This document shows, in pieces, positions 10,829 through 58,806 of a DNA stretch of 64,000 nucleotides (positions are counted from its first letter, which is position 1; each line of letters begins with the position of its first letter). A program made the position numbers and the translations under genes. Source of the DNA: Trypanosoma brucei (lineage: Eukaryota); NCBI GenBank assembly GCA_000002445.1, contig CP000071.1, forward strand, positions 480,001-544,000. Reading direction: 5' to 3'. The notes under the pieces are model-generated. The model was not told the DNA's origin and did no database searches. It saw nothing but the letters and a program-made list of their open reading frames with translations.

Positions 10829-12053
10829 ATGTATGGGATGAACAGAGGAGGAGGCGGTGGATACCGCAACGACCGGATGGGTGCACTCGGTGCCAACCTA
10901 CAGGATGTAAAGTGGGACCAGGTGAATGTTGTGGCTCCTCAGTGGAACTATTACAAACCCCAGGAGCGTTGCAGTGACGAGGAGGTGGCACAATACATGC
11001 GCGACAACCACATTACTATTTATGGTGATTCCGTGCCCCAGCCAATGCTCAAGTTCTCTGACCTCGTTGCGCCGGACACCATTCATCAGGCATTCATAGA
11101 CCTCGGCTACAAGAGCCCGACCCCAATTCAGTCTATCGCCTGGCCAATCCTTCTCAACTCACGCGACCTTGTCGGCGTGGCGAAGACCGGATCCGGCAAG
11201 ACCATGGGTTTCATGGTCCCTGCCGCCCTTCATATAATGGCGCAGCCGCCCATCCGCGTGGGTGAGGGTCCCATTGCTTTGGTGCTCGCGCCGACGAGGG
11301 AACTTGCGGTGCAGATCGAAGAGGAGACGCGTAAGGTGCTACGACGTGTGCCGACCATCACGACGGCGTGTTTGTATGGCGGTACACCAAAGGGGCCGCA
11401 AATCCGTGCCCTTCGAGCTGGGGTACATGTCTGCATTGCAACTCCCGGCCGCCTCATCGACCTGCTGGAGATTCGCGCTGCCAATCTTCTGCGCGTGACG
11501 TTCCTTGTGCTTGACGAAGCGGACCGTATGCTTGATATGGGGTTCGAGGTGCAAATTCGAAAGATTTGCCAGCAGATTCGCAAGGATCGGCAGACGCTTA
11601 TGTTCTCGGCAACGTGGCCCCAAGAAATAAGGAACCTCGCTGCTAGTTTTCAACGTGACTTCATCCGTGTTCATGTTGGATCTGAGGACCTAATTGCGAA
11701 CGCTGATGTTACTCAGCACGTGAGTGTGGTGGAAGATTACGACAAACAGCGGCGGCTGGAGGAGATTCTGCAAAAGGTTGGCAAGCAGAGGGTTCTCATC
11801 TTTGTAAAGACGAAGCGTACCGCTGATTCCCTGCACCATTCGCTACAGCGCCTCATTGGAGGCTCAGTGATGGCCATCCATGGTGATAAGGAACAATCGC
11901 AGCGCGATTATGTGCTTGACCGCTTCCGTCGCGACGAAAGGTCCGTGCTGGTAGCAACGGACGTTGCCGCCCGCGGGCTTGACATTAAGAACCTCGATGT
12001 GGTGATTAACTTCGACATGCCCACAAACATAGAAGATTACGTGCATCGTATTG
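10829..12053 (+). CDS. DEAD-box ATP-dependent RNA helicase (DDX5/DDX17/Dbp2-like), exon 1, ending inside motif VI at a 5' splice site
   Basis: Motif order is Q-motif, 'AKTGSGKT' (motif I), 'PTRELA', 'GG', 'TPGRL', 'VLDEADRMLDMGF' (DEAD), 'SAT', 'ARGLD', then 'HRIG'. The genomic ORF then reads M-stop at 12059-61. The sequence G|GTATGTGAAT at 12053/12054 is a canonical 5' splice site. Confidence 0.85.
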
Positions 12054-12178
12054 GTATGTGAATTGCAATCCGGTTGAGTTCAACTACGTGCTTTCCCCTC
12101 TTCGCTTTGCTTCCCCTTCTCTCACCCCCTCTCCACTGCATAGGCGCAAAACATAGGCACATTCCACAACGCCAGAAG

Positions 12179-12180
<2 letters not shown>

Positions 12181-12227
<47 letters not shown>
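12181..12227. repeat. (CA)n microsatellite, about 24 units, inside the putative helicase intron
   Basis: 'acacacac…' read directly. The ORF track shows (HT)n and (CV)n translations on the two strands. Confidence 0.95.
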
Positions 12228-12232
<5 letters not shown>

Positions 12233-12430
12233 TTACACGTATGTACAGTGGTGTGTAAACCTATATATGGGTTTCTGCCACTGTATTCTTCTCTGTTTTC
12301 GGTTGTGCGTTTTGTTCTTACCCCCGATTTGGTTCTCATGTCTTCCATGCACACGTGCAGCAGGCACTAGGGGAATTAGACGTAAATACTGGTAGGTTAA
12401 CGCAATAGGAAGCTTCTACTGATTTTTTTG

Positions 12431-12450
12431 ATATATATATATATATATAT
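12431..12450. repeat. (AT)10 microsatellite inside the putative helicase intron
   Basis: 'atatatatatatatatatat' read directly. Confidence 0.9.
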
Positions 12451-13377
12451 GTATATGCGTATGTGTGTGCTGCCTATCTCTGTATATAGGGTGTGACGCG
12501 GGGATAGCCAAAGAAGTAGTGTGTTTCGACGCGTGTGTAGGATGTGCCTTTATGTTTGTGTTTGTGTATGTGTCTTTCCCCTCCCCGCCTCCTCTCTCCG
12601 TGGCAGTCGGCTAACGGCAGGCGACTCACTTTCGCTTCAGTGCAGCGCGTTGTGCACGCGCAATGGGTTAGTGGTAGTTGCCAGGCGCTTAGGGAGTAAA
12701 TTGTTGCACATCTATCGTTTTGGTACTTCAGTTATACATGTGTGTGTGTGGAGATAGTTTCTCCCACTTTACGTATGTAGGGATGCTTCCACGTGGGAAT
12801 ATACGTGCGAACGTACCGTGCCTGAAGTAGTGCGGTAGCAACAATCCCTTTGTTCGTGCATGTGTGCGTGTTTGGTACATCTGAATGAATGAATTCTCTG
12901 AAGTGGCTATACGCAAGGAAGTGTCCCATAGGTTTGCAAGGATGAGGGTCGCTCGGGCCTGTACCTGTGGCACATTTCCCTCTGTGTGTGTGTGTATGCG
13001 TTTTTGTTTTGCGTCGGCCACAGAACCAGAGTTCACATGTACCATTAATGCGCAAGCACATATGGCACTCCGCTCTCTTTCCGCTTGTTGGATACAGAGT
13101 CTCCCCCTGCGCGGCGCAGCGAAGTGAGGTAGTACGCTGGTGTCGCCGGCTGTCACGATGCTCCCTTCTTCAACAACTTTTAGAAGTTGGTTACTTCTGT
13201 ACATTTGCTGAAAACTTTCTTTTCTCTTCTCCTTTCTCTAATTTCACTTCCCCTTGACATTGCCGTTGCTCTCATTGTGATGTGGTGTTGTTGTGCGCAA
13301 CGATACCATTTCAATTGGCGACATGTTTGACAAACTGCCGCACATCAATGTCAACTTCCTTACTGTCATATGAAAAG

Positions 13378-13862
13378 GGCGTACCGGTCGTGCCGGGCAG
13401 CGTGGTGATGCTTACACATTTGTTAGCGGTGCCGATCCGTCCAAGACTGTTCGTGACTTGATCGACATTCTTCGCCGCGCCAATCAGGAGATTCCACCAG
13501 GGCTTCACTCGCTTGCTGGCCGCGGTGGCGGTGGCAGTGGCGGTGGCGGCTTCCGTGGGGGCCGTCGCGGAGGGTACGGTGGGGGCGGTGGCGGTTACGG
13601 CTACGGCCGCTCTGGTGCGCAGTACGGCTCTGGGCCCACATACGGCAGGGATTACCGTGGCGCTCCATCCCACCATCAATCGGGTATTTCTGTTGGTGGC
13701 AATACATCTGATGCCTATTGGAGAGGGGGAGCGCCACCGCCTGGTCAACAGCCTTACTATCCGGTGTGCGGAGGTAATAAACGGACCCGTGAGGTGTCCG
13801 GCGGCTTTCACTCAGATCCTCAGAACTCGTACCGTCAGCAACCGACGGGTGGTTCTTATTAG
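13378..13862 (+). CDS. DEAD-box RNA helicase exon 2: end of motif VI plus an RGG/Gly-rich C-terminal tail
   Basis: The in-frame translation is '[43 protein letters not shown]…' followed by '[33 protein letters not shown]…'. An RGG tail like this is typical of DDX5/Dbp2. The stop is at 13860-62. The assembled protein is about 569 aa. Confidence 0.75.
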
Positions 13863-31984: not shown

Positions 31985-34036
31985 GGTGCCCCTTCTTTAG
32001 TTTCCTTTCCTTTCCTTCTTTCGTTCTTTTCTTTGACCTCACCTCACCTCACCTTGTTCTTTTTTATAGTTTTCCTCAGCTTTTTTAAACTTCCAACACT
32101 TCTGATTCTTGTTGTGTGAAGGAAGAGGAGTTGGGAGGTGAAGGCAGTTCATGGAGGGAGGATTTGGCAATGGATGGCGTGAGAAAAAATAAATAAATAA
32201 AAAAATATATATATATATTTAATATGTGTTCGTGCGAATATACGTGTATGTGTCTCTGCGAATGTGTACGTATGTTTGATTTTTACATATCGGTGAAGGC
32301 CTCTGAAGTTTCCTCTTTTAGTTACGCACACAGTTCCGCTGTGGCAATTATTGCAAAGTTGCGGTGCGTTTGTGTACTAGTGGGTTACTTTTCTCACCAG
32401 ATACAGTCCTTGTCGTTTGTTGTCGTACTTTATCCCAATGAACTTCCTTTTTTTTCTTCTTTTACCGTGATTTTTTTTTTTCCTCGGATGTGTTTTTGGT
32501 GATAACGCCCGAGTGTCTGTTTAACTGCTTTTTCAGGACTGAAGGGGGGAGGGGGGAGAATTAAGAAAAAAAAAAGAAAGTGCGTGAGTGAGTGTAGCAG
32601 CTATGAGGGGCAGGGGAAATGACGGTGGCGGCGACATGATTGGGGGGGGGAGGCAAAAGGCGAAGGGGAGAAAATATGAGGGAAGAGCTCGCGTTAAAAA
32701 AGAAAAAAGGATACATTCAAGCATATATATATATATATATCTTTCATGACGTAGGATGTGTGATGAGAGAAAGAGGGAAGGGAATGACCATCGGATTAAT
32801 GAAAACATTTCATAGCACATGTGGAGCGGTGTAAATCCTTCTGTTTCTGAGGCGCATGTGTGTTTGTGTGTGTCCATCTGTAAAGGATATGGGGAGAGTT
32901 TGTGTTGTGCGCAAAGGGGCGGAGTGTAGCGAAGGTTTAAATTGGGGAGGGGGGTGCTGCCATCTGTGGGCCTCACCCGGGTGATTAATGCACTTTAAAA
33001 GTGGGGAACGTGACACCCAAAGGGAGAAGGCACATTTTTCTAATTTTACTTGTGCGTGCTTTTGAGCTGCTGCATCTCTCCCCGCTCCCCTTTTTTGTCC
33101 TTCCTTCTTCTGTTCAGGTAATTAGGTTTAAGAGGCATGCCATAGTCGTCTCACTTGGGAGTCAACTTGTGATCCGTAGCATGTGGAGCGGGATGTGAGA
33201 GTCACACAAACGAGGGACATCGTCGGGGGCTCTGATTCAACTTCTGTGGGGCCAAACCGAAACAACACCTTCGAAGATATACTTCGTGTATTGTTTTTGT
33301 TGTTCACACAATATTTGCTTTTTCTTCCGTTACTTGGGTCTAATAAGTTACCTGCCCTGCTACGCTCGCACCGTCTACCTTTACGTGCACATTTCACTTC
33401 CGCCTATGCGCACTTGCAAACTTACACTTATGTAGTATATGTGTACACGTTGTGCTTTTGTTTCATCTTTCTTATTTTCCAGTGTGCGTACACGTATGGC
33501 TTCAGCATATTTAACCTGGTACCTTTGGCAGTTAGTAAGGCCACCACCAGTGCCCAACCCCACTGCCTGAGGAGGGCTTTTACTGATTATAAAAATACAA
33601 AACCAGGAGCAAGAAGGAACAAAATATTAGAAAGAAAGCGGCAGGAGGGGGGGGGAGGTGAGAGGGAAAGAAAGATGGGAGTCTCTAACTCTGGCAGTCA
33701 TTAGTGATATCAACCTTTCTCATCGCTCTGAAAGGATTATGTTTGTGCGTGTGGAATTCGCTTTGAGGCAATACGCACCTCTGTGCTCCCTTCCTTTACC
33801 ACAATACCAAGGGGGTTCAGGTGGTTAGTCATTTATTCCCTCTTTTCTCCTTTTTTCTTTGTTTCACTTGACCACTTGCCTCTTTAGATTGGTGGGCGCC
33901 TCCTCCCTTACGAACCCCTAGTACCGTACATATATATATATATATATATATTGGACTACAGGAGGAGGGGGAAGGAATTGCGCAAATACATCCATCACAA
34001 AAGAAGACAAAAGAGTAAGACGGAGACGCACTCGTA

Positions 34037-50566: not shown

Positions 50567-51196
50567 TTGTATATCGGCCTTTTATCTTTCATTTATTTGC
50601 GGATTGACTGGCCTTAACCCCCCGACCTCGATACCCAATTCTTTCCCTCCTAAATAAATTTGCATTCGAATGCACAAGTAATTACACCTTGAAACGTCTG
50701 TCGGTGTTGCTGCTGTTGGTACACGCAAAAATTATAGTGGAAAATACGCTTGTTTGTGTATTGGACAGTTTCTGTTTCACTTTTTTTTTTTGTTGACTAT
50801 CAAATGCTACTCTTTTTTTCTTCTTTCTTCTTTTTTTTTTCCTCATTCATGCAAGCCACTGCTTCTGCCTCCTCTGTTTCGCCACACGTCCAGCTATTAT
50901 CAGTATCTCATATGTGGCAGGAAAAGAGAGGAGAGGGAAGATTGGATAAGTTAGTTTTTCTAAAAATTCCCTTGGTTGTAGGTTAAGATAAATGTTGCAG
51001 CCGGTTTATTTGTTGGGGAGATGCGTATACGTATGTGTATATGTTTGGCTGCTTGTGCGTTGGAGTGGCTCCCGTGCAGCTCTTCCATTATCTATTCATT
51101 AACACATAGCGGTCATACGGTAGCGATGTGAGTTTTGGAGGAAATTAAACACTTCGGTAGAGGGGGAGTTAGTTTCTGTCATATGTGGATTTGTGT

Positions 51197-51211
51197 ATTT
51201 TTTTTTTTTTT
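51197..51211 (+). promoter_or_regulatory. Poly(T) polypyrimidine tract, a candidate trans-splicing/polyadenylation signal, upstream of the lysyl-tRNA synthetase
   Basis: T13 is followed by AG dinucleotides. A second tract 'cctctcttttttttttaccctcacc' lies at 51262..51290. Both precede the start ATG at 51411. Confidence 0.5.
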
Positions 51212-51410
51212 GAGACCTGAAGTTGAGGTTCGTACCTTGCAATTTTACTCATTGGCGCCAACCTCTCTTTTTTTTTTACCCTCACCGTTGCTACTGATAG
51301 TGGTGGTCTTCTTTACTATTGGCAACGTTGCCATTCACAAACCACGGTTCTACCTTTGTACAGTAGGAAAAGGAAAAAAAAAACAAGAGAATATACGCGC
51401 GCAAGAGACG

Positions 51411-53165
51411 ATGTCGGCTGTGGAGGAGCTCCGAGCTCAAATCGATGCGCTCGCGTCGCAGATCTCTGCGGTTAAAAAGGAACAGGGCGCCTCTAGTGAG
51501 GCGTGCAAATCCCTTGTGGCTAAAATGACTGAACTTCGAAAGCAACTTCCTCAAGAAAAGAAGGAAAAGAAAGCGGAGAAGGCCCCGGAGATCAGTTACT
51601 ACGATACACGTCTCGCAATGGTGAAAGAAATGGGCCCTCTCGGTGCCGCCTACCCTCATAAGTTCCACCGAGACTACACCTTACCCGCCTTCCGAGAGTG
51701 TTTCAAGCCAATGTTGCAGGAAAAGGGTCAACGCCTCGATAAGGTCGTGACGATTGCCGGACGTATCGTCGTGAAGAGAAGCTCGAGCTCCAAACTGCAT
51801 TTTTTGGCTCTTCAGGGTGATGGGGAGGTACTGCAGGTTATATCCATGGCGAGTGACTACGTTAATGATGGTTTTGCGGACATTCACAGCAAGATCAAGC
51901 GTGGCGATATCATTGGTGTGCGAGGTGTGCCATCGTTTTCAAACACGGGGGAGTTCTCCATGAGTGCCTACGAAATCACGCTGCTCTCCACATGTTTTCA
52001 CATGTTGCCAGATGAGCATTACGGGCTGAGCTCAGTCGAACAGCGCTTCCGTCAGCGATACCTCGACCTGATTGTGAATCGAGAAAACGCGAAGACTTTT
52101 ATCCTCCGCTCCAAGATCATAAGCTACATCCGCAGTTTCTTTGACCAGAAGGACTTCCTAGAGGTGGAAACGCCCATGTTGAACCAGATCGCCGGTGGTG
52201 CTGCTGCGCGGCCTTTTATCACACACCACAATGAGCTCAACCAGACAATGTACCTGCGAATTGCACCGGAGTTGTACCTAAAAAAACTTGTTGTTGGTGG
52301 CTTGGATCGTGTATATGAGATCGGCAAACAGTTCCGCAACGAAGGTATCGATCTCACGCATAATCCGGAGTTCACGAGTGTGGAGAGTTATTGGGCGTAC
52401 GCAGACTACAATGATTGGATGGAGACCACTGAGGAGTTACTTTACGGTATGGTCATGCATCTTTACGGATCTCCTATTGTGAAGTACTCCCCGAGGGATT
52501 CAGAGGGCCGTCAGTTACCTGAGGTAACTTTTAACTTCAACAGGCCCTTCAAACGCCTGCACATTGTTCCGAAGTTGGAGGAGATACTAGGACTTAAATT
52601 CCCTGCTGATTTCTATTCCTCTGAGGCAAACAGTTTCTTTCTGGACATTTGCAAGAAGAACCAGGTTGAGTGCAATCCCCCCTTCACAACGACACGCCTA
52701 CTAGATGCGCTTGTCTCCCACTATCTTGAGCCACAGTGCCACGACCCGACATTTCTGTGCGACCACCCGCGTATAATGTCTCCGTTGGCAAAGTGGCACC
52801 GTAAAGACCTTCGGCTCAGCGAGCGCTTCGAGCTGTTTATTAACAAAAAAGAGATCTGCAATTCATATACGGAGTTAAACAGTCCCCTCGTGCAGCGAGA
52901 GGAGTTTGAAAGGCAACTGCGTGACCGCGAGAAGGGTGATGACGAGGCAATGGATATTGATGAGGGTTATGTACAAGCATTGGAATACGCGTTGCCTCCC
53001 ACTGGTGGTTGGGGTTTGGGTATTGATCGACTCGTCATGTATCTCACAAGCCAAAACAACATCAAGGAAGTCCTTCTATTTCCAGCTATGAAACCTGAAG
53101 GGACATCCTCTGCCACATTCCCACCAGGAACAATGTTGAATGGACAAGGGGTGCCACTTCTTTGA
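51411..53165 (+). CDS. KRS: Lysyl-tRNA synthetase (class II) with a eukaryote-type Lys-rich coiled-coil N-terminal extension
   Basis: Class II motif 2 is '[23 protein letters not shown]'. Motif 1 is 'FLEVETPML'. Motif 3 is the region '[17 protein letters not shown]'. The ORF track extends upstream to 51135. That extension contains long poly-T splice-acceptor tracts (51197..51211 and 51262..51290). I therefore take the start as the ATG at 51411 ([10 protein letters not shown]…). Confidence 0.88.
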
Positions 53166-53364
53166 AGGGTCTCAGGCACTACACGCGAGACAAATAGGCA
53201 GCTGAGCAACATGCAAAGGAAAAAAAAAGGTAAGACAGAACGGAGGATCACAAATGAAAAAGCATTAATCCCTACGAAAAACAACACAGCATGATTTAAA
53301 AAAAAAACAGAATTCGGATGGCGTAATAAATTACACATTTCAGGAGCAGTGTTAACATAATGTC

Positions 53365-56300
53365 AATTCTATTCGGTTACTGATGCAGTAAATTATACCA
53401 CTCTCTTTCTGCAGCGAATACGTGCTATCTCTCTGTTCAATTAACCTTCTTTTTTCCTTGCTCTTCCCTCTGCAACAGTGAGGCTCGCAGATGTTTATGT
53501 TCCTTTGAACCCTTGTGAGACTGTTGGGTCCCTTGATGATTGTGGCAACTCTCCACGGAACTTATCTGACAAAATTTGCCTACGAACCTATTACCAAGGC
53601 TGAGGTCTCTACAGTACCCTTGCTTTAAGCTCTGTGTGTGATGTATATACGACTATGAACAACTCGTCAGAGTGCTATCTTTGATGATCACATACATTTT
53701 GCTTCCTCACTGACAACATACCTGCATTTGCAATCACTCCTGTAAACATACATTTTTTGGCTCCTCTTTCTATTTCTTGAAACTCTATGCTCGATTGCTC
53801 GGCGACTCCACGGTGATGTTCAATACAATAACTGATGTAATGAGACCTAGTGGAATACTGCGGACACTTCTTGTTCTGAGCGAGTTTCGTCGATGAGGCA
53901 CAACATGATCTTTGACTACACATGATGAGCAGCAAAGAAAGGGAATCTCTTGTCGAGCTCAGGGAATGAATCCCAGTGGCGGTGACATGACAAACTTTGA
54001 TATTACTATAATCCATTCTATTCTGTTACTGATGCAGTAAATTATACCACCCTCTTTCTGCAGCGAATACGTGCTATCTCTCTGTTCAATTAACCTTCTT
54101 TTTTCCTTGCTCTTCCCTCTGCAACAGTGAGGCTCGCAGATGTTTATGTTCCTTTGAACCCTTGTGAGACTGTTGGGTCCCTTGATGATTGTGGCAACTC
54201 TCCACGGAACTTATCTGACAAAATTTGCCTACGAACCTATTACCAAGGCTGAGGTCTCTACAGTACCCTTGCTTTAAGCTCTGTGTGTGATGTATATACG
54301 ACTATGAACAACTCGTCAGAGTGCTATCTTTGATGATCACATACATTTTGCTTCCTCACTGACAACATACCTGCATTTGCAATCACTCCTGTAAACATAC
54401 ATTTTTTGGCTCCTCTTTCTATTTCTTGAAACTCTATGCTCGATTGCTCGGCGACTCCACGGTGATGTTCAATACAATAACTGATGTAATGAGACCTAGT
54501 GGAATACTGCGGACACTTCTTGTTCTGAGCGAGTTTCGTCGATGAGGCACAACATGATCTTTGACTACACATGATGAGCAGCAAAGAAAGGGAATCTCTT
54601 GTCGAGCTCAGGGAATGAATCCCAGTGGCGGTGACATGACAAACTTTGATATTACTATAATCCATTCTATTCTGTTACTGATGCGGTAAATTATACCACC
54701 CTCTTTCTGCAGCGAATACGTGCTATCTCTCTGTTCAATTAACCTTCTTTTTTCCTTGCTCTTCCCTCTGCAACAGTGAGGCTCGCAGATGTTTATGTTC
54801 CTTTGAACCCTTGTGAGACTGTTGGGTCCCTTGATGATTGTGGCAACTCTCCACGGAACTTATCTGACAAAATTTGCCTACGAACCTATTACCAAGGCTG
54901 AGGTCTCTACAGTACCCTTGCTTTAAGCTCTGTGTGTGATGTATATACGACTATGAACAACTCGTCAGAGTGCTATCTTTGATGATCACATACATTTTGC
55001 TTCCTCACTGACAACATACCTGCATTTGCAATCACTCCTGTAAACATACATTTTTTGGCTCCTCTTTCTATTTCTTGAAACTCTATGCTCGATTGCTCGG
55101 CGACTCCACGGTGATGTTCAATACAATAACTGATGTAATGAGACCTAGTGGAATACTGCGGACACTTCTTGTTCTGAGCGAGTTTCGTCGATGAGGCACA
55201 ACATGATCTTTGACTACACATGATGAGCAGCAAAGAAAGGGAATCTCTTGTCGAGCTCAGGGAATGAATCCCAGTGGCGGTGACATGACAAACTTTGATA
55301 TTACTATAATCCATTCTATTCTGTTACTGATGCAGTAAATTATACCACCCTCTTTCTGCAGCGAATACGTGCTATCTCTCTGTTCAATTAACCTTCTTTT
55401 TTCCTTGCTCTTCCCTCTGCAACAGTGAGGCTCGCAGATGTTTATGTTCCTTTGAACCCTTGTGAGACTGTTGGGTCCCTTGATGATTGTGGCAACTCTC
55501 CACGGAACTTATCTGACAAAATTTGCCTACGAACCTATTACCAAGGCTGAGGTCTCTACAGTACCCTTGCTTTAAGCTCTGTGTGTGATGTATATACGAC
55601 TATGAACAACTCGTCAGAGTGCTATCTTTGATGATCACATACATTTTGCTTCCTCACTGACAACATACCTGCATTTGCAATCACTCCTGTAAACATACAT
55701 TTTTTGGCTCCTCTTTCTATTTCTTGAAACTCTATGCTCGATTGCTCGGCGACTCCACGGTGATGTTCAATACAATAACTGATGTAATGAGACCTAGTGG
55801 AATACTGCGGACACTTCTTGTTCTGAGCGAGTTTCGTCGATGAGGCACAACATGATCTTTGACTACACATGATGAGCAGCAAAGAAAGGGAATCTCTTGT
55901 CGAGCTCAGGGAATGAATCCCAGTGGCGGTGACATGACAAACTTTGATATTACTATAATCCATTCTATTCTGTTACTGATGCGGTAAATTATACCACCCT
56001 CTTTCTGCAGCGAATACGTGCTATCTCTCTGTTCAATTAACCTTCTTTTTTCCTTGCTCTTCCCTCTGCAACAGTGAGGCTCGCAGATGTTTATGTTCCT
56101 TTGAACCCTTGTGAGACTGTTGGGTCCCTTGATGATTGTGGCAACTCTCCACGGAACTTATCTGACAAAATTTGCCTACGAACCTATTACCAAGGCTGAG
56201 GTCTCTACAGTACCCTTGCTTTAAGCTCTGTGTGTGATGTATATACGACTATGAACAACTCGTCAGAGTGCTATCTTTGATGATCACATACATTTTGCTT

Positions 56301-57086
56301 CCTCACTGACAACATACCTGCATTTGCAATCACTCCTGTAAACATACATTTTTTGGCTCCTCTTTCTATTTCTTGAAACTCTATGCTCGATTGCTCGGCG
56401 ACTCCACGGTGATGTTCAATACAATAACTGATGTAATGAGACCTAGTGGAATACTGCGGACACTTCTTGTTCTGAGCGAGTTTCGTCGATGAGGCACAAC
56501 ATGATCTTTGACTACACATGATGAGCAGCAAAGAAAGGGAATCTCTTGTCGAGCTCAGGGAATGAATCCCAGTGGCGGTGACATGACAAACTTTGATATT
56601 ACTATAATCCATTCTATTCTGTTACTGATGCAGTAAATTATACCACCCTCTTTCTGCAGCGAATACGTGCTATCTCTCTGTTCAATTAACCTTCTTTTTT
56701 CCTTGTTCTTCCCTCTGCAACAGTGAGGCTCGCAGATGTTTATGTTCCTTTGAACCCTTGTGAGACTGTTGGGTCCCTTGATGATTGTGGCAACTCTCCA
56801 CGGAACTTATCTGACAAAATTTGCCTACGAACCTATTACCAAGGCTGAGGTCTCTACAGTACCCTTGCTTTAAGCTCTGTGTGTGATGTATATACGACTA
56901 TGAACAACTCGTCAGAGTGCTATCTTTGATGATCACATACATTTTGCTTCCTCACTGACAACATACCTGCATTTGCAATCACTCCTGTAAGCATACATTT
57001 TTTGGCTCCTCTTTCTATTTCTTGAAACTCTATGCTCGATTGCTCGGCGACTCCACGGTGATGTTCAATACAATAACTGATGTAAC
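53365..57086. repeat. Tandem array of a 649-bp unit, about 5.7 near-identical copies, directly upstream of the GP63 array
   Basis: The same sequence recurs with exact 649-bp period; for example, 'tgatgcagtaaattatacca' is at 53381, 54030, 54679 and onward. The first copy is diverged. The array ends at 57086, where the sequence 'tgtaaTGAGACC' becomes 'tgtaaCATTATTG'. Each unit holds an identical 113-aa minus-strand ORF. Confidence 0.95.
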
Positions 57087-57141
57087 ATTATTGTTTTCTC
57101 TCTTCCCCTTGTTCCTCCCATGTGTCAAAAGGAAGCGGTTG

Positions 57142-58806
57142 ATGATGCTACCGGCGTGTGTAATCCCGATGCATGGCGCATTGAAACTCGCCATACTGCT
57201 GATGTTGGTATGGTGCTGTTCCTTGTGTCTCGCGAAGTCAGGTGGCCGCTGCATGTTCGATGAAATTGCGGCGAAAGCTGGACGTCCACGGGTTTTGGCG
57301 CTGCGAAGGACTAAAGCAGGCATGGAGAATGTAAAGTATGACAGGACAGGTTCCGTTGACCCTGAGTGGCAGCACATCCGTATTGTTGTTTTCGCAGAAG
57401 ACATGAAGGACCGGTCGCGATATTGCACGTCTGCAGGGCAGGAACGACCAACGTTTTTCGGAGAAACAGCGACATGTTCACAAGAAGACATTTTGACAGC
57501 CGCTAAGAGAGATATTGCCGTCACGAAGCTTCTTCCTTCAGCTGTCCAGATGCATATGGATAGGTTACTCGTCGACCCTATAACTGAACCCCTTGTCTTT
57601 CCTCCATTTGATGGTTCGGTGTGCTCTGAGTTCAAAGTACCGTCAAGTCATTTCTCAGAGGGCGTACCTGACGCTGATATGGTAATGTATGCTGCAGCGG
57701 GTCCAACGCCGGAGGGTGTGGCTGCCTGGGCTACGGGTTGCATAACTCTTGACGATGGGCGTGCTGTGGCTGGCGTAACTAACCTTGGCCCCGGTTCCAT
57801 TAGCCTGTCGGAGACCAGCATTCGCACAGCTGCTCATGAGATTGCCCACGCCCTTGGGTTCGATTTCGAAGCGATGAACGATGCCGGTATGGTGCAAAGA
57901 ATTCCCGGTGTTCGTGGAAAGGTTGATGTGACACTCATTTCGTCACCCAGGACACTGCAGAAGGCCCGCGAACACTACAATTGTCCCGATGCCCCTGGAA
58001 TGGAACTGGAGGACGAAGGTGGTAGTGGCACCGCATTATCACACTGGGAGCGGCGCAATGCGAAGGATGAGATCATGTCTGGTATTTCTTCACCTGGTCG
58101 ATACACAGCGCTAACGATGGCGGCGTTTGAGGATCTGGGATATTACCGTGGTGCCTGGGGGAGCGAAGAACCTATGGGTTGGGGAAACAACTCTGGTTGT
58201 GAGCTACTCAACGAAAGCTGTTTGGTGAACGGTGTGACAGCGCACCCGGATATGTTCTGCAACGAAACCGTGAGCAAGCTGGTTTGTAACTCGGAGCGAG
58301 ATGGTCTTGGAAGGTGTAATGTAATTAAGCATGAAAATCCACTTCCACCGCAATACCATTACTTTTCTGATCCTTCACGTGGTGCCCCCTCCCATCTCTT
58401 GATGGACTACTGCCCGTCCATTGACGCGTTCTCCAACACGCCTTGTGCCGACGGCGAAACGAAATTCATGCGTGGAAGTTTGATAGGACCGTCGTCAATG
58501 TGTCTGAAGGCCGAGGGACTCCGTGACAGTCAGGGCGTCATTGGCGATGTTTGTGCGGATGTGCGGTGTGATGGTGGTGAAGTAAGCATTCGTTATCTTG
58601 GGGATGATGCATGGCATCCGTGCCCAGAAGGCAGTCACATCAAACCGACTACAACATTCACGGATGGCGTCATTGTTTGCCCGACTTACAGTGAGGTTTG
58701 TATCAAAGCAACAGTGGTTGTACGCCCTTCTTCAGCCAGCTACCGTTCTTCAGTGCCGCAATCGCTGCTTCTCACCCTATTCGCTATAGTTTATGCTGCC
58801 TGTTAA
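57142..58806 (+). CDS. MSP-B: Leishmanolysin/GP63 (major surface protease, M8 zinc metalloprotease), tandem copy 1
   Basis: The zinc-binding 'AAHEIAHALGFD' (HExxH) is present. The signal peptide reads 'MMLPACVIPMHGALKLAILLMLVWCCSLCLA'. There are many conserved Cys. A C-terminal hydrophobic GPI-type signal reads 'SLLLTLFAIVYAAC'. The ORF track began at 57022 inside the 649-bp repeat; the MML start is taken by analogy with copies 2 and 3. Confidence 0.85.
   Translation: MMLPACVIPMHGALKLAILLMLVWCCSLCLAKSGGRCMFDEIAAKAGRPRVLALRRTKAGMENVKYDRTGSVDPEWQHIRIVVFAEDMKDRSRYCTSAGQERPTFFGETATCSQEDILTAAKRDIAVTKLLPSAVQMHMDRLLVDPITEPLVFPPFDGSVCSEFKVPSSHFSEGVPDADMVMYAAAGPTPEGVAAWATGCITLDDGRAVAGVTNLGPGSISLSETSIRTAAHEIAHALGFDFEAMNDAGMVQRIPGVRGKVDVTLISSPRTLQKAREHYNCPDAPGMELEDEGGSGTALSHWERRNAKDEIMSGISSPGRYTALTMAAFEDLGYYRGAWGSEEPMGWGNNSGCELLNESCLVNGVTAHPDMFCNETVSKLVCNSERDGLGRCNVIKHENPLPPQYHYFSDPSRGAPSHLLMDYCPSIDAFSNTPCADGETKFMRGSLIGPSSMCLKAEGLRDSQGVIGDVCADVRCDGGEVSIRYLGDDAWHPCPEGSHIKPTTTFTDGVIVCPTYSEVCIKATVVVRPSSASYRSSVPQSLLLTLFAIVYAAC

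What the first reader, a model, noticed from the sequence alone, without database searches (positions are those of the whole stretch)
12054..13377. DEAD-box helicase gene interrupted inside motif VI by a GT…AG intron
Seen in sequence: the helicase ORF stops one codon after 'HRIG', and the stop is created by the sequence G|GTATGTGAAT. After 1324 nt, the bases immediately following a 'ttccttactgtcatatgaaaAG' read in frame '[23 protein letters not shown]…', the rest of motif VI. The usual post-motif-VI block and an RGG tail follow. The break falls exactly between the first and second nucleotide of the Gly codon, with GTATGT and AG at the two boundaries. A frameshift or pseudogene would not do this. 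Established knowledge: kinetoplastid genes almost never have cis-introns; only poly(A) polymerase and one DEAD/H helicase are known to. This appears to be that helicase, or an orthologous case.
Basis: partly seen in the sequence, partly recalled or inferred. Interest (0 to 1): 0.85.

Follow-up and report, generated by a model that had tools for sequence, protein, structure and literature searches.

The report
Known intron in trypanosome DBP2B helicase

Summary
ORF 10829-12061 ends HRIGM*. G(12053)|GTATGT opens a 1324-nt interruption that closes with AG at 13376-13377, and exon 2 runs 13378-13862. Joining 12053 to 13378 gives a 569-aa DDX5/Dbp2-type DEAD-box helicase with an intact motif VI (HRIGRTGRAG) and an RGG tail.

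[quoted passage not shown] The window is 98.7% identical to T. b. gambiense chromosome 8 over 23 kb. The gene is therefore Tb927.8.1510 (DBP2B). Its intron was reported with the genome in 2005, confirmed by RNA-seq split reads in 2010, shown to depend on U1C in 2014, and surveyed across Kinetoplastea in 2024.

I found the same phase-1 split of the same Gly codon in T. cruzi, T. vivax, T. melophagium and L. donovani. The syntenic Angomonas orthologue is precisely intron-less.

Two additions:
- It is not the 'conserved DBP2/p68 intron' of yeast, which lies 24 codons upstream.
- Trypanosoma species share a U1-complementary box at intron +17..+27, which coincides with a published U1 crosslink at +22.

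Verdict: real, correctly interpreted, already known, low interest.

The parts
10829..12053 (+). Exon 1 coding part of DBP2B (Tb927.8.1510 allele): 408 codons plus the first base of Gly409. It holds the DEAD domain and Helicase_C up to HRIG.
   Evidence: (PF00270 at residues 98-269, PF00271 at 306-415)
12054..13377 (+). Cis-spliced spliceosomal intron, 1324 nt, phase 1, GT...AG.
   Evidence: The same codon is split in five other kinetoplastid loci. It is 94.9% identical to T. b. gambiense with 33 gap positions, against 99.4-99.8% for the exons. Published split reads: PMC2926603.
12054..12061 (+). 5' splice site GTATGTGA. GTATGTGA with the preceding exon bases GTGCATCGTATTG is identical in the four Trypanosoma species; L. 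donovani shares GTGCATCGTATTG|GTATGT. A is at -4 and T at -2. The sequence contains the in-frame TGA that ends the unspliced ORF.
   Evidence: motif described in PMC11613528
12070..12080 (+). Conserved box CCGGTTGAGTT at intron +17..+27. TGAGTT is the exact complement of the U1 snRNA 5' end AACUCA, and GG(T)TGAGTT pairs with U1 nt 1-8 with one bulge. The box also reads as a cryptic 5' splice site G|GTTGAGT at +20.
   Evidence: Conserved in T. brucei, T. cruzi, T. vivax and T. melophagium, not in L. donovani. It gives the best U1 duplex within -10..+50 in all four species, -8.0 to -11.6 kcal/mol. Published U1C/U1-70K iCLIP crosslinks lie at +11 and +22 (PMC4041458).
12092..12140 (+). Pyrimidine-rich stretch just downstream of the 5' splice-site region. 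It is pyrimidine-rich in all four Trypanosoma introns.
12182..12228 (+). (CA)n microsatellite inside the intron. With the (TA)n at 12431-12451 it is a likely contributor to the length difference from T. b. gambiense (1324 vs 1301 nt); the indel positions were not mapped.
   Evidence: The weak Rfam miRNA/scaRNA hits here are low-complexity artefacts far below gathering score.
13216..13275 (+). Polypyrimidine tract, 77-90% pyrimidine in 30-nt windows, about 100-160 nt upstream of the acceptor.
13187..13375 (+). AG-free zone of 189 nt between the last upstream AG and the acceptor AG. The corresponding AG-to-AG gap (13185 to 13376, 191 nt) is the longest in the window.
   Evidence: In the three other Trypanosoma introns the previous AG lies 84-169 nt upstream of the acceptor AG.
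13376..13377 (+). 3' splice-site AG.
   Evidence: homologous AG|G in the other species
13378..13862 (+). Exon 2 coding part: the last two bases of Gly409, then RTGRAG (the rest of motif VI), the post-motif-VI block, the Gly/Arg-rich tail (about 13519-13611) and the stop TAG at 13860-62.

Best explanation
This is the single U2-type (GT-AG) cis-spliced intron of the Trypanosoma brucei DBP2B gene (Tb927.8.1510), a nuclear DDX5/Dbp2-subfamily DEAD-box RNA helicase.

The gene is transcribed within a polycistronic unit. Exon 1 receives the spliced leader by trans-splicing. The U1 snRNP recognises the 5' splice-site region (G|GTATGTGA plus downstream intronic sequence). The first AG after a long AG-free, pyrimidine-rich stretch serves as acceptor. 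Removing 12054-13377 joins G to GG, which rebuilds the Gly codon of HRIG-RTGR and yields the 569-aa helicase. Unspliced RNA would encode a protein truncated after HRIGM, which lacks the motif VI arginines and the RGG tail.

Shown here: the junction, the identity with the annotated protein, and the conservation of position and phase across trypanosomatids.
Shown in the literature: split reads, and a cis-splicing defect for this pre-mRNA on U1C knockdown.
Inferred only: any regulatory role of the intron.
For: - Junction and frame.
- The spliced protein is 100% identical over 100% of its length to the annotated T. b. gambiense helicase.
- It aligns gap-free to yeast Dbp2 (E = 2.5e-139) and human DDX17 across HRIGRTGRAG.
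- Helicase_C is matched end to end only when the gene is spliced.
- Locus identity and synteny (Rav1p_C, DUF1674, hypothetical, DEAD helicase, GPHR).
- The same Gly codon is split in phase 1 with G|GTATGT...AG|G in T. b. gambiense, T. cruzi, T. vivax, T. melophagium and L. donovani.
- Intron sequence is otherwise unconserved and evolves about 10 times faster than the exons between T. brucei subspecies (about 5.1% against 0.5% divergence), with zero amino-acid changes.
- The syntenic Angomonas orthologue is contiguous exactly at the junction, CAC CGT ATC GGT CGT ACC, as expected for precise intron loss.
- Literature: 22 RNA-seq tags exactly span the intron and none shows trans-splicing of exon 2 (PMC2926603). 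TopHat confirmed the junction (PMC2936537). U1C/U1-70K crosslink near the 5' splice site and U1C knockdown impairs cis-splicing (PMC4041458). Phase 1 and pan-kinetoplastid distribution are reported in PMC11613528.
Against: Nothing in the sequence argues against it.

Caveats:
- The exact strain is not established. The window is 98.7% identical to T. b. gambiense, not 100%.
- No branch point can be named, because kinetoplastids lack a branch-point consensus.
Confidence: 0.97

Rival explanations
1. A pseudogene, or a gene disrupted by an insertion, frameshift or assembly error. On this view the 1.3-kb block is junk that inactivated the helicase.
For: The genomic ORF stops inside motif VI. The inserted block holds microsatellites and no coding signal.
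Against: - The interruption sits at the same nucleotide of the same codon in six loci from five species, with unrelated intron sequences of 1301 to 4457 nt.
- Both exons are under purifying selection: 8 synonymous and 0 non-synonymous differences from T. b. gambiense.
- The boundaries are GT/AG, with a polypyrimidine tract and a record AG-free zone.
- Spliced reads are published.
Confidence: 0.01
2. Two independent products. Exon 1 is polyadenylated in the intron to give a truncated helicase, and exon 2 is expressed on its own by spliced-leader trans-splicing at the same AG. Cis-splicing would be a minor pathway.
For: - The acceptor has the standard trypanosome trans-splice signal, a polyY tract followed by the first AG.
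- SL-exon2 isoforms were recovered for all three intron-containing genes in L. mexicana, and for PAP1 and RBP20 in T. brucei (PMC11613528).
- RNA-seq coverage falls only incompletely in the intron.
- Several public annotations call exon 1 and an exon-2 ORF as separate genes.
Against: - In T. brucei, 22 tags span the cis-junction and none shows SL on exon 2 of this gene.
- Exon 2 alone begins in mid-motif and its first in-frame start gives only a low-complexity peptide.
- A helicase without the motif VI arginines should be inactive (established DEAD-box knowledge).
- The intron-less Angomonas orthologue encodes the fused protein.
Confidence: 0.03
3. A different in-frame junction, for example donor 12048 with acceptor 13377, giving VHR-RTGRAG (567 aa).
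For: It is open in frame with GT and AG at the ends.
Against: - It deletes the invariant Ile-Gly of HRIGR, which is present in every homologue aligned.
- The annotated protein is 569 aa and identical to the 12054/13377 product.
- The conserved GTATG motif starts at 12054 in all species.
Confidence: 0.005

Closest known systems
Tb927.8.1510 / DBP2B cis-spliced intron of Trypanosoma brucei (Berriman 2005; Siegel 2010, PMC2926603; Kolev 2010, PMC2936537; Preusser 2014, PMC4041458; Kostygov 2024, PMC11613528)
   Same: It is the same gene. The protein is identical to the T. b. gambiense annotation. The chromosome-8 synteny, the phase 1, the GTATG 5' motif with A at -4 and T at -2, and the GT/AG borders all match.
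   Different: Nothing of substance. The intron is 1324 nt here against 1301 nt in T. b. gambiense DAL972; the indel positions were not mapped, though the intron holds (CA)n and (TA)n repeats.
The 'conserved DBP2/p68 intron' of S. cerevisiae DBP2, S. pombe dbp2 and human DDX5 (Iggo 1991 and Barta & Iggo 1995, as cited in PMC4695336)
   Same: - The helicase subfamily is orthologous.
- The intron is long, about 1 kb, and lies in the 3' part of the helicase core of a gene in an intron-poor genome.
- Both are phase 1.
- The donor context is nearly the same: ATC G|GTATGT in yeast against ATT G|GTATGT here.
   Different: - The position differs. The yeast intron splits Asp425 of ARGI-D-VKG (end of motif V), 24 codons (72 nt) upstream of the Gly of HRIG-RTGR that is split in kinetoplastids. 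Yeast is contiguous at the kinetoplastid site, and the kinetoplastid gene is contiguous at the yeast site.
- Autoregulation by Dbp2p or Mmi1-dependent decay is shown for the yeasts, but nothing of the kind is known for DBP2B.
PAP1 (Tb927.3.3160) and RBP20 (Tb927.8.6440) introns, the other two kinetoplastid cis-introns
   Same: Shared GTATG 5' motif, dependence on the U1 snRNP, and location in genes for RNA-interacting proteins.
   Different: They are different genes with different phases (PAP1 phase 2, RBP20 phase 0). The DBP2B intron is the longest of the three and has been lost at least five times in Trypanosomatidae.

Membership tests
Kinetoplastid DBP2B cis-spliced intron | The host gene is the DBP2B orthologue (DDX5/Dbp2-subfamily DEAD-box helicase) at the conserved syntenic locus. 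| tested here: met
   100% identity to the T. b. gambiense annotated protein. The best solved-structure relative is yeast Dbp2. Neighbouring genes are shared with T. b. gambiense, T. cruzi, T. vivax, T. melophagium, L. donovani and Angomonas.
Kinetoplastid DBP2B cis-spliced intron | Phase-1 intron at a fixed position, here the Gly codon of HRIG|RTGR. | tested here: met
   phase 1 is stated in PMC11613528.
Kinetoplastid DBP2B cis-spliced intron | GT/AG borders with the conserved GTATG at the 5' end, A at -4 and T at -2. | tested here: met
   ATTG|GTATGTGA...AG; motif as described.
Kinetoplastid DBP2B cis-spliced intron | The intron is removed from mRNA in vivo. | not testable with these tools
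   No RNA data could be queried. Published evidence: 22 spanning tags, TopHat confirmation, and a U1C-knockdown splicing defect.
U2-type spliceosomal intron | A polypyrimidine tract followed by the first downstream AG as acceptor. | tested here: met
   PolyY at 13216-13275, then no AG until 13376. The 191-nt AG-to-AG gap is the longest in the window.
U2-type spliceosomal intron | Complementarity of the 5' splice-site region to the U1 snRNA 5' end. | tested here: inconclusive
   With the consensus AACUCACCUGCA, the splice site itself gives only -6.6 to -7.3 kcal/mol. The box at +17..+27 gives -8.0 to -11.6 kcal/mol. A perfect duplex gives -19.8 kcal/mol. In T. brucei, 3.4% of shuffles do as well.
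U2-type spliceosomal intron | An identifiable branch point. | not testable with these tools
   Kinetoplastids have no branch-point consensus (PMC11613528).
Conserved DBP2/DDX5 autoregulatory intron (yeast to human) | The same intron position relative to the protein. | tested here: not met
   The yeast intron splits Asp425, 24 codons upstream. Yeast and a moth orthologue are contiguous at HRIGRT.
Conserved DBP2/DDX5 autoregulatory intron (yeast to human) | The intron mediates negative feedback by the helicase, or regulated retention and decay. | not testable with these tools
   The only hint is an incomplete fall-off of RNA-seq coverage in the intron.
DEAD-box helicase, DDX5/Dbp2 subfamily | Complete motif set (Q, I, Ia, Ib, DEAD, SAT, IV, V, VI) and a C-terminal RGG tail. 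| tested here: met
   Pfam DEAD (4.6e-47) and Helicase_C (6.8e-35) are matched end to end. AKTGSGKT, DEAD, SAT, ARGLD and HRIGRTGRAG are visible in the alignment to Dbp2.

The most novel reading that the evidence does not exclude
In Trypanosoma, U1 snRNP may dock not only at the cleavage site but also at a conserved intronic box 17-27 nt downstream (CCGGTTGAGTT, 12070-12080). The box is also a cryptic 5' splice site (G|GTTGAGT at +20), and its use would retain the in-frame TGA. The box could act as a remote U1 anchor that helps a weakly complementary GTATGT site. Alternatively it could act as a decoy that throttles productive splicing. The second option would give DBP2B a regulated, inefficiently spliced intron that works like the autoregulatory DBP2 intron of yeast, although it sits at a different position. 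The published U1C/U1-70K crosslinks at +11 and +22 fit the predicted T. brucei duplex (U1 nt 9-12 with +11..+14, U1 nt 1-8 with +19..+27). I found no paper in the held library that makes this point for DBP2B or links it to the yeast DBP2 intron.
Probability: 0.2. Interest if true: 0.4.

Novelty: already known. Interest (0 to 1): 0.12.

Why it matters
Kinetoplastids process nearly all mRNAs by trans-splicing, and only three genes keep a conventional intron. These introns are the reason the organisms retain a U1 snRNP. They are also the only natural substrates for studying cis-splicing and its interplay with trans-splicing and polyadenylation. The feature is therefore biologically notable, but it has been annotated since 2005 and analysed repeatedly, so re-finding it adds no new knowledge.

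What the check does show:
- The first-stage reader can recognise a true intron from raw sequence.
- Several public assemblies (T. cruzi, T. vivax, T. congolense entries) still annotate only the exon-1 ORF.
- There is a small, testable lead: the conserved U1-complementary box.
- One question is closed: this is not the yeast/human DBP2 intron position.

Tried and rejected
1. Non-coding RNA hosted in the intron. Rfam at gathering score found nothing in the intron. The sub-threshold hits (mir-3149, SCARNA7, mir-297) sit on the (CA)n and (TA)n repeats and lie far below their cut-offs. Rejected.
2. Conserved intronic elements. A MAFFT alignment of four Trypanosoma introns shows conservation only in the first ~46 nt, in pyrimidine runs, and in one T. 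brucei/T. vivax block (12590-12612). The rest does not align.
3. A conserved hairpin sequestering the 5' splice site. RNAalifold gives -2.0 kcal/mol with no compensatory pair. Not supported.
4. Homology of position with the yeast/human conserved DBP2 intron. I fetched the S. cerevisiae locus, and the intron is 24 codons upstream. A moth orthologue has no intron at HRIG|R. Rejected.
5. Cryptococcus p68-like gene structure. The protein was not on record for DNA look-up.
6. Supplementary tables of PMC11613528 (species-by-species intron lengths, U1 pairing figures). They are not held.
7. Barta & Iggo 1995 and Moore 2011. They are not held.
8. ORFs inside the intron, for example the 158-aa ORF on the minus strand at 12728-13204. 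No gene is called there in T. b. gambiense, and I did not pursue them.
9. Loci L003-L007 and L009 never appeared in the Python sandbox, so their splice sites were read by eye from get_sequence output rather than by script.

Full report
**1. Observation**

- The + strand ORF 10829-12061 encodes 410 aa ending ...NIEDYVHRIGM*.
- The bases read ATT G|GT ATG TGA. G12053 is the first base of a Gly codon, GTATGT occupies 12054-12059, and the stop TGA lies at 12059-12061.
- After 1324 nt, the sequence ...ttccttactgtcatatgaaaAG ends at 13377.
- GG at 13378-79 completes the Gly codon. The frame then reads [22 protein letters not shown]..., a Gly/Arg-rich tail, and a stop at 13860-62.
- The interruption has 13-16 stops in every frame and a lower G+C than the exons (47% against 55-62%).

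I enumerated every GT donor in 11990-12120 against every AG acceptor in 13000-13520.
- 17 pairs keep an open frame, but only 12054/13377 restores HRIGRTGRAG.
- The acceptor AG is the first AG after a 189-nt AG-free stretch. The AG-to-AG gap of 191 nt is the longest among the 3752 AG dinucleotides of the 64-kb window (median gap 10). It is preceded by a polypyrimidine tract at 13216-13275.

**2. What the gene is**

- The spliced 569-aa product has complete DEAD and Helicase_C Pfam domains.
- It aligns without a gap across the junction to yeast Dbp2 (PDB 8ark, E = 2.5e-139) and human DDX17.
[quoted passage not shown] It is 569 aa, 100% identical, with 100% coverage.
- The DNA around that gene in T. 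b. gambiense chromosome 8 (FN554971) aligns to window 828-23853 at 98.7% identity.
- An Rfam gathering-score hit to the trypanosomatid snoRNA TB8Cs4H2 at 33208-33277 fits chromosome 8 of T. brucei.
- The gene is the T. brucei DBP2B locus, Tb927.8.1510.

**3. Comparative evidence**

Using proteins, I fetched the orthologous loci.
- The gene order Rav1p_C, DUF1674, hypothetical, DEAD helicase, (NUDIX), GPHR is conserved.
- In each of the following, the exon ends GTGCATCGTATTG and the intron starts GTATGT. The intron ends AG and is followed by G(A/T/G) CGN ACN GGN CGN GC. This is the same Gly codon split in phase 1.

| Species | Intron length (nt) |
|---|---|
| T. b. gambiense | 1301 |
| T. cruzi | 1451 |
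| T. vivax | 1501 |
| T. melophagium | 1814 |
| L. donovani | 4457 |

- The 13 exonic bases before the donor are identical even in GC-rich Leishmania. The intron-less Angomonas orthologue uses other synonymous codons there (GTC CAC CGT ATC G). This suggests a splicing constraint on exon bases, as noted by Kostygov et al. (A at -4, T at -2).
- The syntenic Angomonas gene is contiguous exactly at the junction. This matches the reported repeated precise loss of this intron.
- Apart from the first ~46 nt and pyrimidine runs, the four Trypanosoma introns do not align.
- Between the window and T. b. gambiense, the exons are 99.4-99.8% identical with no amino-acid change. The intron is 94.9% identical with 33 gap positions.

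**4. Literature**

- Siegel et al. 2010 found 22 76-nt tags exactly spanning the Tb927.8.1510 intron, 18 tags for the trans-splice site of exon 1, and none for trans-splicing of exon 2. RNA-seq coverage fell 'significantly but incompletely' in the intron.
- Kolev et al. 2010 confirmed the junction.
- Preusser et al. 2014 found U1C and U1-70K crosslinks at +11 and +22 of this intron, and a cis-splicing defect on U1C knockdown.
- Kostygov et al. 2024 named the gene DBP2B and reported phase 1. They also reported a median intron length of about 3350 nt, at least five independent losses, and a third intron-containing gene, RBP20.

The feature is therefore already known in detail.

**5. Mechanism**

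Shown or published:
- GT-AG spliceosomal removal that depends on the U1 snRNP.
- An acceptor defined by a polyY tract plus the first AG.

Inferred:
- Unspliced RNA would give a helicase truncated after HRIGM. It would lack the motif VI arginines and the RGG tail, and so should be inactive.

No branch point can be assigned, because kinetoplastids have no consensus.

**6. Two small additions**

(a) *Relation to the conserved DBP2/p68 intron of yeasts and human*. That intron is autoregulatory in S. cerevisiae and promotes decay in S. pombe.
- I fetched the S. cerevisiae DBP2 locus.
- Its intron reads ...GGT ATC G|GTATGT...TTTTCAG|AT GTC AAA. This is phase 1 in Asp425 of ARGI-D-VKG, 24 codons upstream of the Gly that is split in kinetoplastids.
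- Yeast, a moth orthologue, Bodo's paralogue and Angomonas are all contiguous at HRIGRT.
- The two introns share phase, donor sequence, size class and host gene family, but not position. Membership in that 'conserved intron' is not met.
- I found no paper in the held library that compares them.

(b) *A conserved U1-complementary box.*
- Immediately downstream of the donor, Trypanosoma species share a box at +17..+27: T. brucei CCGGTTGAGTT (12070-12080), T. cruzi and T. melophagium CCGGTTGAGTC, and T. vivax CAGGCTGAGTA. L. donovani lacks it.
- TGAGTT is the exact complement of the U1 5' end AACUCA (consensus AACUCACCUGCA).
- In all four species the most stable U1 duplex within -10..+50 is with this box (-8.0 to -11.6 kcal/mol), not with the cleavage site (-6.6 to -7.3 kcal/mol).
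- In T. brucei the optimal duplex pairs U1 nt 9-12 with +11..+14 and nt 1-8 with +19..+27. This is where the published crosslinks at +11 and +22 fall.
- The energy difference is modest, and 3.4% of shuffles reach the T. brucei value. I treat this as a lead only.
- The box also reads as a cryptic donor G|GTTGAGT at +20, whose use would keep the in-frame TGA.
- A consensus hairpin over the region is weak and shows no covariation.

**7. Verdict**

The feature is the textbook DBP2B intron of T. brucei. Novelty: already known. Interest is low (0.12). The score reflects only the minor U1-box lead and the clarified non-identity with the yeast DBP2 intron.

Noticed in passing
window 12070-12080 (intron +17..+27): The box CCGGTTGAGTT is conserved in four Trypanosoma species and is complementary to the U1 snRNA 5' end. 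It coincides with the published U1C/U1-70K crosslink at +22, and it also reads as a cryptic donor G|GTTGAGT.
   Followed up: partly
L008 (S. cerevisiae DBP2) 1768-2748: The yeast DBP2 intron has the same phase (1) and nearly the same donor context (ATC G|GTATGT) as the trypanosome one, but it lies 24 codons upstream, in Asp425. The two are parallel long introns in the same helicase family, not the same position.
   Followed up: yes
L002 8001-9221 and 10799-11296; L004 8001-9203 and 10834-11223: Public annotations of T. cruzi and T. vivax call only the exon-1 ORF (406 and 400 aa) and a separate downstream ORF overlapping exon 2. The T. congolense entry is similar at 409 aa. The intron is not annotated in those assemblies.
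   Followed up: partly
L006 7297-7325 (Angomonas deanei): The syntenic DBP2B orthologue is intron-less and contiguous exactly at the junction. It uses different synonymous codons in HRIG (CAC CGT ATC GGT) from the intron-containing species (CAT CGT ATT G|G.).
   Followed up: partly
window 12590-12612: An intronic block CCTCTCTCCGTGGCAGTCGG is shared almost exactly with T. vivax (CCTCTCTCCGTGTCAGTCGG) but not with T. cruzi or T. melophagium. Its meaning is unknown.
   Followed up: no
window 33208-33277 (+): H/ACA snoRNA TB8Cs4H2 (Rfam RF01551, 91.8 bits, full length).
   Followed up: no
window 53363-57256 (+): Six tandem copies of a 649-bp unit at 99% identity, lying between a lysyl-tRNA-synthetase-like ORF (51135-53165) and a leishmanolysin/GP63-like ORF (57022-58806). 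There is no long ORF, but there are several TGATGA...CTGA pairs, so it looks like a repeated C/D snoRNA cluster. Rfam gives only sub-threshold hits.
   Followed up: partly
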